Shown: in pieces, positions 60,497 through 62,372 of the stretch
Layout of the letters: each line of letters starts with the position of its first letter
How positions within the stretch are numbered: position 1 is the stretch's first letter
Made by a program: the position numbers and the translations under genes
Assembly (NCBI GenBank): GCA_951406725.2
Contig: OX597826.1
Coordinates: forward strand, 39,556,001 to 39,620,000
DNA: 64,000 nucleotides
From: Octopus vulgaris
Lineage: Eukaryota
Reading direction: 5' to 3'
The notes under the pieces: model-generated
Database searches by the model: none
Told to the model about the DNA's origin: nothing
Seen by the model: the letters and a program-made list of their open reading frames with translations, nothing else

Positions 60497-62031
60497 GAAC
60501 GGGTATATAATACAACTCTATGATCGAAAGTTAAAACAATACAAGAAAAAAAAAAAGAAAATATAAAGAAAAGAAAAGAAAAATACTCTTCAGTATCTCA
60601 CTAGTAATCAGCTTTCAGCAGCTACATTTGTTTTGTGTCTGTTATTCAGCCAACATTGAAGGTGTGTCCCCATGGGTTTAAAATGTCCCCATCACGATGT
60701 AGCTGCTTCATATTTTACAAATCATCTTAGATCGAGCCAATTTCTATAGAAGTACAACTCTATATATGTTTCTGGAGTGGGTAAAATCTGTTTGTGGGAA
60801 TCGATGTATTTGACTGTTGAAATAACACTAAAATGATTTAATCTGTTCTATATTCATACATTTATACATCGACAACGTAATGACTCATTAATAAAAGAAA
60901 GATGTTTATGAAGCTCTGCTGAGAGAAGGATGTTTTTTTACACTATGCCCTGAGAGTACAATTATTATCCAGCGAAATGTGTTTAATATGTCATGATGTG
61001 TGTTTGATATTCAGAAAGGTGCTTCAAGAGATGTGTGTTTATTATGTAAAGAAGTATCTTAAATATTCAGAGGCGAGTGTTTAATGTATAGTGGAGTGTG
61101 TTTATTACCCAGAGGAATGTGTTTCATATGTACAGAAAGATGTATAGTAAGCTATGCTCAGGGTATATATTTATATATTTTTTTTTATATAAAGGTGCTT
61201 CATATTTATAATTTTTTATAATGAAATAATTCTTCATATGGTTACGCTCAGAGAAAAAGCTGGAAAGTCGTTGTTATTGCTTTACTCCAGGTCAGTCTCG
61301 ATCAATAATCATTCAAATAACTGGAGTCCAGGTGTGATAATTAAAGGTATTTTTATCAGGCGCAACTCATCCAGGTACATTACCCTTTTCTGAGAAGAAA
61401 GGGTAATATTTGAGGGTCATTTAGCTGCTAGTTATGATGAAGCAACCAGAAAGGCTATATCGTTAATTGGAATTGTTCTGCCTAAGTTTTCAGATATACA
61501 GATACCTTGCTAATTAATTATAAACATGCAGGTGTGTTGCTAATTCTTTATACACATACTTGTTGATAATTAATTATAGATAAAAGGGATATGCTATTAA
61601 TTAATTAATTAATTATTGATATACAAATATGTTGTTAATTATTATAGATTTAGAAATGTGTTGCTAATTAATTATAGATATACAGCTTTGCACCTAATTA
61701 ATTATAAATATACAACTGTATTGCTAATTAATTATAAATTTAATCTAGGATGTTTATGTTAGACGTTTGTTGGAGGAATATTTCAGCTTGACAATTCGTG
61801 GAAAGGTAGAAAAGCGTTACTGGCCTCATTCAGTGTCAATTAATATCAACCAATCACAATTAAACACGTCTTCTTGAAATGAACTAATGGTTTATTTACG
61901 CAAGATTTAACACCACTAGGTATGGATTTCGTAAATTTTCTGATTGTCTATTGTTCTCTGGTTTCCCCACTCTCTTTATCTCTCTCTGTCAGTGACTCAC
62001 ACACATACACGTATGTAAATACATAATATAA

Positions 62032-62074
<43 letters not shown>

Positions 62075-62232
62075 CTTTATTTTAAGCAGCAGAAAATTCA
62101 ACAAAATCTGTTACTCTGAGTTTCTCGTTGCCGTTCATCAGACAGTTTTTGCTAGCAAAAACTGTCTGATGAACGGCAACGAGAAACTCAGAGTAACAGA
62201 TTTCGTTGAATTTTCTGCTGCTTAAAATAAAG
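62075..62232. repeat. 158-bp near-perfect palindrome with no spacer
   Basis: Centred on GCTAGC (62151-62156); one mismatch between the arms. Confidence 0.95.
62162..62199 (+). ncRNA. Type I hammerhead-ribozyme-like motif (mirror copy on minus strand at 62108-62145)
   Basis: ctgt-CTGATGA-a cg gcaa cg a-GAAA-ctc a gag-TA-acag: intact core, GUA cleavage triplet, stem I ctgt/acag; the 10.1-11.1 pair is a non-canonical A-A. Confidence 0.65.
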
Positions 62233-62372
62233 CATATTACTCTACCACTGGTATTTGAGTACTCTTTTTTCCACATTTACTCCGGTATATATATATATAT
62301 ATAATATAATTTATATATACATATAATTTATTTATGTATATATATATATAATTTATATATGCATATCATTTA

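What the first reader, a model, noticed from the sequence alone, without database searches (positions are those of the whole stretch)
62075..62232. Spacerless 158-bp palindrome presenting a hammerhead ribozyme motif on both strands
Each arm carries ctgt-CUGAUGA-[cg GCAA cg]-GAAA-cuc a gag-UA-acag. The near-palindromic stem III resembles the minimal hammerheads of Penelope-like elements thought to act as dimers. A single mismatch suggests a recent origin. Transcription from either direction would yield a ribozyme plus its own antisense strand, so a 79-bp dsRNA hairpin would compete with ribozyme folding and could be an ADAR/Dicer substrate (inference).
Basis: partly seen in the sequence, partly recalled or inferred. 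Interest (0 to 1): 0.7.

Follow-up and report, generated by a model that had tools for sequence, protein, structure and literature searches.

The report
Head-to-head Hydra-type Penelope retrotransposon stub
This palindrome is one of hundreds of identical back-to-back stubs of a young Penelope-like jumping gene, likely made when its enzyme copied the first stretch of its own uncut RNA twice and joined the two copies, so the ribozyme motif on both strands is a by-product of insertion, and the mirror half is predicted to block it.

Summary
The palindrome is real (62075-62232, one mismatch, no spacer) and not unique. The same junction occurs at 229 loci, and the family has at least 8,570 arms. The insertion runs to 62285: (TA)n, inverted arm, forward arm, a tail on one side only, (TA)n. 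Both arms match the end repeat of a 3.4-3.5 kb Penelope-like element with uninterrupted 707-711 aa frames and most Hydra-clade motifs. The hammerhead has the published Hydra layout. Its A-A mismatch is also in intact copies. Two units are predicted to fold as a double hammerhead, but in the palindrome the hairpin wins (-126 vs -0.4 kcal/mol). Cleavage, transcription and editing are untested. Across copies, arms vary independently in length, share subfamily letters, pile up at an initiator-like site 16 nt before the core, and show no pile-up at the cut site. This favours two cDNAs run off one uncleaved sense RNA and joined at CTAG (inferred) over the published antisense self-priming. The layout is known, and this scan has noted the same kind many times on other DNA. 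New family of a known kind; modest mechanistic value.

The parts
62059..62074 (.). (TA)n target tract, left
   Evidence: sequence; nearly all copies viewed sit in (TA)n
62075..62155 (-). Inverted, tail-less arm: 3' part of the pseudo-LTR, from 13 nt before the hammerhead core to the fixed end after AATAAA
   Evidence: 81/81 identical to intact copy L199
62108..62145 (-). Minimal type I hammerhead motif, minus strand; predicted cut between 62112 and 62111
   Evidence: pattern scan; layout as Hydra-2_Amil
62152..62155 (.). CTAG overlap that joins the two arms; a self-complementary 4-mer of the element
   Evidence: both arms end at -13 with a 4-nt overlap; same junction at 229 loci
62152..62232 (+). 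Forward arm: same pseudo-LTR stretch
   Evidence: 80/81 identical to L199
62162..62199 (+). Minimal type I hammerhead motif, plus strand (2-bp stem II with GNRA loop and A-A at 10.1/11.1; palindromic stem III); predicted cut after 62195
62204..62204 (+). Private T>C change, the single arm mismatch; it breaks one pair of the predicted extended stem I
   Evidence: C in 24 versus T in 8,570 exact 25-mers of the genome
62226..62231 (+). AATAAA just before the fixed end of tail-less arms (function not tested)
   Evidence: sequence; fixed arm end
62233..62285 (+). Tail (71 nt in the family, 18 nt deleted here), on one arm only; in full elements it runs on into the ORF leader
   Evidence: one-sided in 14 of 15 exact-junction loci, absent in 1
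62286..62303 (.). (TA)n target tract, right
   Evidence: sequence

Best explanation
The palindrome is a short head-to-head insertion of a young Hydra-type Penelope-like retrotransposon in a TA repeat, likely formed when two cDNAs, one primed on each cut DNA strand, ran off the 5' end of the element's uncleaved sense RNA and annealed at CTAG. Shown: family membership, anatomy, two fixed 3' ends (tail end and the base after AATAAA), independent arm lengths, a pile-up of arm ends 11-17 nt before the hammerhead core, and no pile-up at the cut site. Inferred: the endonuclease cuts both strands of (TA)n; reverse transcription starts at the two ends of the tail; the pile-up marks the RNA start at an initiator-like site where the predicted stem I begins; the cDNA ends were trimmed by 3 nt and joined through the 4-nt overlap. 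The hammerhead belongs to the parent element, where it is predicted to work only as a dimer. In this copy the mirror arm would lock it in a 79-bp hairpin, so the copy is likely inert debris.
For: Family: 8,570 exact 25-mers; 229 identical junctions; 32 copies in which the tail runs on into the ORF; five uninterrupted 707-711 aa frames at four loci with RWK, DKT, YRDD, a GIY-YIG-like motif, CxxC and CxH, matching the Hydra definition; protein-atlas neighbours carry RVT_1 and GIY-YIG in part of their members. Two cDNAs: in 72 loci covering the first 100 matches, there are 42 head-to-head pairs; by at least 5 nt the tail arm is longer in 10, the tail-less arm in 19, and 13 are within 4 nt; in 5 pairs the arms share no sequence at all (tallied by hand). 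One source: the two arms agree at 176 of 187 subfamily-site comparisons, 0.45-0.73 expected at random (that set adds 12 exact-junction loci, two of which are duplicates). RNA start: 36 of 122 arm ends fall at -17..-11, 5.1 per base against 0.16 upstream and 1.2 downstream; junctions repeatedly stop exactly at -16. Uncut template: apparent ends at the cut site 67, at control sites 62 and 66. In vitro precedent: a Poseidon PLE cuts and extends both strands, starts at the two ends of the tail and uses unprocessed RNA (PMC11167929). Folding: hairpin -126.4 versus a partial hammerhead fold (stems I and II) -0.4 kcal/mol; two parent 5' units fold as a double hammerhead, -28.2 versus 2 x -13.0.
Against: The RNA start is inferred from DNA ends only; a strong reverse-transcriptase stop would look similar. 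The cap-like extra C is only suggestive: 13 of 59 ends at -16, or 13 of 22 after setting aside by eye those explained by AT overlap. The sample needs bases 28-52 of an arm, so very short arms are missed, and BLAST ends blur by a few bases. After removing small indels by eye, the cut-site count is about 56 against 54 and 26, so a weak excess over one control remains. The middle cysteine of the Hydra CxCX5C motif is absent in all five intact frames. Pfam gives no hit for the protein and no tree was built. The dimer is favoured by only 2.2 kcal/mol, and the window's own forward arm alone is not predicted to form the hammerhead.
Confidence: 0.8

Rival explanations
1. The palindrome arises by self-priming: one nucleic acid folds back at the short palindrome and copies itself, on an antisense template, as proposed for rotifer Penelope elements.
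For: Published reading of head-to-head junction palindromes (PMC3846280 discussion). Arms agree at subfamily sites, and this copy is symmetric about CTAG.
Against: A fold-back copy cannot be longer than its template or add the tail. The tail-less arm is longer by at least 5 nt in 19 of 42 pairs, and 5 pairs share no sequence. A zero-base spacer leaves no loop.
Confidence: 0.1
2. The 211-230 bp palindrome-plus-tail is itself a mobile non-autonomous unit (MITE- or retrozyme-like) copied whole from locus to locus.
For: 229 loci share the exact junction; several are identical over both arms.
Against: The exact junction occurs in at least two subfamilies, lies within a continuum of other junctions and coincides with the end hot spot plus a self-complementary 4-mer. 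No tandem monomer arrays were seen in the loci viewed.
Confidence: 0.05
3. The locus is a functional host element: a transcribed hairpin that switches between ribozyme and dsRNA and feeds ADAR or Dicer.
For: A read-through transcript is predicted to form a 79-bp hairpin. Family sequence is in contigs of four runs guessed to be RNA (RNA status not on record).
Against: The copy is young and carries two private lesions. The energy gap leaves no switch. No Pfam exon above cut-off was found among the 69 window frames scanned. Incidental editing is possible if the site is intronic, but nothing points to selection at this locus.
Confidence: 0.03
4. Assembly or library fold-back artefact.
For: No read or contig spanned the locus.
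Against: Different flanks on the two sides, a tail on one arm, a private mismatch, and the same junction at 229 loci across many contigs.
Confidence: 0.02

Closest known systems
Hydra clade of C-terminal EN+ Penelope-like elements (Craig et al. 2021, PMC8557442; Hydra-2_Amil, Hydra-1_Obim, Penelope-13_HM)
   Same: RWK, DKT, CxxC and CxH motifs, (TA)n target, hammerhead near the 3' end. Hydra-2_Amil has the same stem I, core and stem III letters apart from the loop base. Penelope-13_HM is listed with an inverted 5'-truncated copy and a hammerhead on both strands.
   Different: Stem II is 2 bp plus A-A (3 bp in other subfamilies) against 3-7 bp in the listed Hydra hammerheads. The unit is 3.4-3.5 kb against generally under 3 kb. 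Intact copies lack the middle Cys of CxCX5C. Hydra-1_Obim has another hammerhead and a visibly different protein, so it is another family (compared by eye).
Minimal and palindromic-helix-III PLE hammerheads (Cervera and de la Pena 2014, PMC4209133)
   Same: Type I motif in the pseudo-LTR with palindromic helix III, thought to need a dimer; pairs on opposite strands 100-700 bp apart were reported; activity in vitro is low.
   Different: Helix II is much shorter and lacks the G10.1-C11.1 pair that the paper calls highly conserved.
Poseidon element of Anolis in vitro (Frangieh et al. 2024, PMC11167929)
   Same: Both strands cut and extended, two start sites bounding the tail, AT-rich target, unprocessed RNA as main template.
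   Different: Another clade; there the tail lies inside the ORF and is 30-40 nt, here it is 71 nt in the leader. The parts read do not describe how two cDNAs are joined.
Inverted-pLTR insertions of Adineta vaga Penelope elements (Arkhipova et al. 2013, PMC3846280)
   Same: Inverted pseudo-LTR, optional tail on one side, overlap or palindrome at the junction, initiator-like motif in the pLTR.
   Different: The authors favour self-priming on an antisense template; the copies here favour two cDNAs from a sense RNA.

Membership tests
EN+ Penelope-like element | Single ORF with RT and C-terminal GIY-YIG endonuclease | tested here: met
EN+ Penelope-like element | Partial tandems forming pseudo-LTRs, inverted 5'-truncated copy, tail at one end | tested here: met
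   L061 and L062 anatomy; 42 head-to-head pairs; one-sided tail
Hydra clade | RWK motif and DKT in place of DKG | tested here: met
   present in 5 of 5 intact frames
Hydra clade | CxCX5C linker | tested here: inconclusive
   present in L062 and L043, middle Cys replaced by Phe in 5 of 5 intact frames: polymorphic in the family
Hydra clade | CxxC and CxH around the conserved E and N; no CCHH motif | tested here: met
   CxxC and CxH by motif search; absence of CCHH judged by eye from the printed proteins
Hydra clade | (TA)n insertion preference and hammerhead near the 3' end | tested here: met
Hydra clade | Placement inside the clade on an RT tree | not tested
   reference proteins were seen only as cut text in the supplement; stretches agree by eye
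Type I hammerhead ribozyme | Core CUGANGA, GAAA and UH with three stems | tested here: met
   sequence; stem III needs a dimer; about half of sampled arms carry U4C, not this copy
Type I hammerhead ribozyme | Paired 10.1-11.1 and a stable stem II | tested here: not met
   A-A plus 2 bp here; position 11.1 varies A/G/U/C. Natural hammerheads with 2-bp stem II and U-U at this place are reported
Type I hammerhead ribozyme | Match to an Rfam hammerhead model | tested here: not met
Type I hammerhead ribozyme | Self-cleavage | not testable with these tools
   indirect only: no clear pile-up of arm ends at the cut site

The most novel reading that the evidence does not exclude
The thousands of stubs of this family are a genomic record of the Penelope insertion reaction: two reverse transcriptases start at the two ends of the tail on one capped, uncleaved sense RNA whose first base is also the first base of the hammerhead's stem I, run off its 5' end and are joined by end microhomology. 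This replaces the published antisense self-priming model and means the hammerhead is not cut in the RNAs that get copied.
Probability: 0.55. Interest if true: 0.55.

Novelty: new member of a known kind. Interest (0 to 1): 0.3.

Why it matters
How Penelope-like elements form head-to-head copies and what their hammerheads do are stated as open in the papers read (PMC8557442, PMC11167929, PMC3846280). This family has intact copies and thousands of stubs with sharp, countable ends, so it gives exact predictions: the RNA start, two priming sites, the join, and no cleavage of templates. It also seeds the genome with at least 229 near-perfect hairpins that could be edited if transcribed. The single locus is ordinary.

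Tried and rejected
1) In the first loci, nearly every two-arm copy differed at the same C/T site. This was an artefact of my query, which carried the rare C: 24 against 8,570. Rejected. 2) Rfam hammerhead models: no hit. 3) Pfam and PDB sequence searches with the protein: nothing. 4) DNA reads on the locus: only 3 and 2 raw reads were laid and no contig spans it, so presence in other animals is unknown. 5) No RNA holder listed on record; contigs of four runs guessed to be RNA cover most of the element, but cannot show start, strand or level, and gave no splice joint near the leader. 6) Footprint of ribozyme cleavage in arm ends: none clear. 7) Host gene: 120 frames of at least 62 aa (69 from window 31-64 kb, 51 from the next 20 kb) gave only a C2H2 zinc-finger hit about 13.5 kb beyond the window; short exons would be missed. 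8) Lunse et al. on dimeric PLE hammerheads was not held; I saw it only as cited in PMC6765202. 9) Paper searches for a twin-priming account of PLE inversions returned 0 papers; most subscription papers are not searched, so this is weak evidence that it is unpublished.

Full report
Observation. The palindrome is there: 62075-62232, centre between 62153 and 62154, no spacer, one mismatch at 62103/62204. Shuffled windows give arms of 9-14 nt at most (20 shuffles). Each arm carries a hammerhead-shaped motif, core at 62166 (+) and 62141 (-), predicted cut after 62195. Rfam does not recognise it.

It is a repeat. The window lies in a 2.8-Gb genome, G000; earlier scan notes call it an octopus, which I did not test. 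A 25-mer of the arm occurs 8,570 times and the exact junction 24-mer at 229 loci. Copies share one plan: (TA)n, an inverted arm ending just after AATAAA, a forward arm with the same end plus a 71-nt tail, (TA)n. In the window the tail runs to 62285 and lacks 18 nt. Among 15 exact-junction loci the tail is on one side in 14 and missing in 1. Different flanks, a one-sided tail and recurrence make an assembly fold-back unlikely, although no read spanned this locus.

A false lead. My first loci nearly all had C in one arm and T in the other at the window's mismatch site. Whole-genome counts showed that C is rare (24 against 8,570), so my query had selected such copies. The mismatch is a private change in the forward arm, which fits a recent origin.

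Parent element. Walking upstream gave partial tandems with a 3.4-3.5 kb unit. In 32 copies the tail runs on into the ORF leader. I checked 20 of them, fetched the 4 that were open to the end of the locus, and found five uninterrupted frames of 707-711 aa. They carry RWK, DKT, YRDD, a GIY-YIG-like motif, CxxC and CxH, which define the Hydra clade of Penelope-like elements in PMC8557442 (section 11 read; abstract and passages; supplement tables). The CxCX5C linker is present in some copies but has Phe for the middle Cys in all five intact frames. Pfam is silent; the protein atlas lists animal clusters with RVT_1 and GIY-YIG in part of their members. No tree was built. The window's inverted arm is 81/81 identical to intact copy L199, the forward arm 80/81.

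The hammerhead. Its layout equals that of Hydra-2_Amil except for stem II and one loop base; many Hydra hammerheads have a U-U at 10.1/11.1, and Penelope-13_HM is listed with a hammerhead on both strands. Opposite-strand pairs were also reported in PMC4209133 (first two of four parts read), where single motifs did not cleave and dimers did so weakly. Stem II here is only 2 bp plus A-A. Among 79 arms the window's form is the commonest (30); subfamily variation falls on U4, N7, the stem II loop, 11.1 and a stem I mismatch. The A-A form is in 8 of the 11 hammerheads read in ORF-linked copies. Two-pair stems II and U4C are known in natural hammerheads (PMC3088659 passages). For the parent 5' unit, a 15-pair stem I from -16 to +46 is predicted, the monomer misfolds its core, and two units fold as a double hammerhead, -28.2 against 2 x -13.0 kcal/mol. 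For the window's palindrome the hairpin is -126.4 and a partial hammerhead fold (stems I and II) -0.4; its forward arm alone, with the private change, is not predicted to form the motif. Cleavage is untested.

How the palindrome formed. I fetched all 72 loci behind the first 100 matches and mapped 122 arm ends. There are 42 head-to-head pairs. By at least 5 nt the tail arm is longer in 10 and the tail-less arm in 19; 13 are within 4 nt; in 5 the arms share no sequence. A single strand folding back cannot give these, which counts against the antisense self-priming proposed in PMC3846280 (passages and discussion read). The arms agree at 176 of 187 subfamily-site comparisons, so both come from one source lineage, probably one RNA. 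The two fixed 3' ends bound the tail, as the two start sites do in vitro in PMC11167929 (first two of four parts read). 36 of 122 ends fall at -17..-11, 5.1 per base against 0.16 upstream and 1.2 downstream; long ends cut by locus edges lie outside these bins. The edge at -16 is the A of an initiator-like CCATTCT (consensus recalled), with a CCAAT box about 75 nt upstream, and it is where stem I begins. Drosophila Penelope has an internal promoter with initiator and DPE (PMC2377424 passages). Junctions ending exactly at -16 are common (280 matches). In the first 100 of 731 matches, tallied by hand, 41 run on in another subfamily and 59 stop at -16: 24 into TA, 18 followed by T, 13 by C, 4 by other A. 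The C would fit a cap, but this is post hoc and only suggestive. The first self-complementary 4-mer inside that end is CTAG; annealing there gives exactly the window's spacerless palindrome (inferred). If cleaved RNA were copied, ends should pile up at the cut site. They do not clearly: 67 against 62 and 66 at control sites, about 56, 54 and 26 after removing small indels by eye.

Context. No Pfam exon above cut-off was found among 69 window frames; a zinc-finger exon lies about 13.5 kb beyond the window. No RNA holder is on record. Whether this copy is transcribed, edited or diced is open.

Novelty. The layout, the clade and two-strand hammerheads are published. This family is not among the Hydra families listed in the supplement read. 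Searches for a twin-priming account of PLE inversions found no paper, within a library that lacks most subscription journals. The scan has noted the same kind repeatedly, in this genome and others, several times with the same two-cDNA reading; I had stated my reading before seeing them, and they are not independent support. One note on another family reports ends at the cut site, which I do not see here. Verdict: new member of a known kind, interest 0.3.

Noticed in passing
G000, rows (e.g. L078): The same single-base deletion in the palindromic stem III occurs in 26 of the 66 rows; in L078 it is in one arm only. It may be a recurrent copying error at the near-palindrome or a small subfamily.
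   Followed up: no
L199-L202 ORFs, residue about 580: All five intact frames have Phe in place of the middle Cys of the Hydra CxCX5C linker, which was linked to (TA)n targeting, yet young copies still sit in (TA)n.
   Followed up: partly
L005/L031 (minus strand) and L025: Frames of other, more divergent Hydra-like elements lie next to copies of this family.
   Followed up: no
haplotypes: About half of sampled arms (40 of 82) carry U4C in the hammerhead core, in thousands of copies, so this core change did not stop amplification.
   Followed up: partly
L076 and L077 (G000:C2, 6.4 kb apart); L063 (two palindromes 730 bp apart): L076 and L077 are identical with flanks, a local duplication; L063 holds two independent insertions of different subfamilies.
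   Followed up: no
L198:3407-3718 (-), about 13.5 kb beyond the window's end: C2H2 zinc-finger exon (Pfam E 7.5e-07); whether its gene spans the palindrome is unknown.
   Followed up: no
window 60968-61155 and 61492-61736: Two short degenerate tandem repeats with units of about 21 and 30 nt.
   Followed up: no
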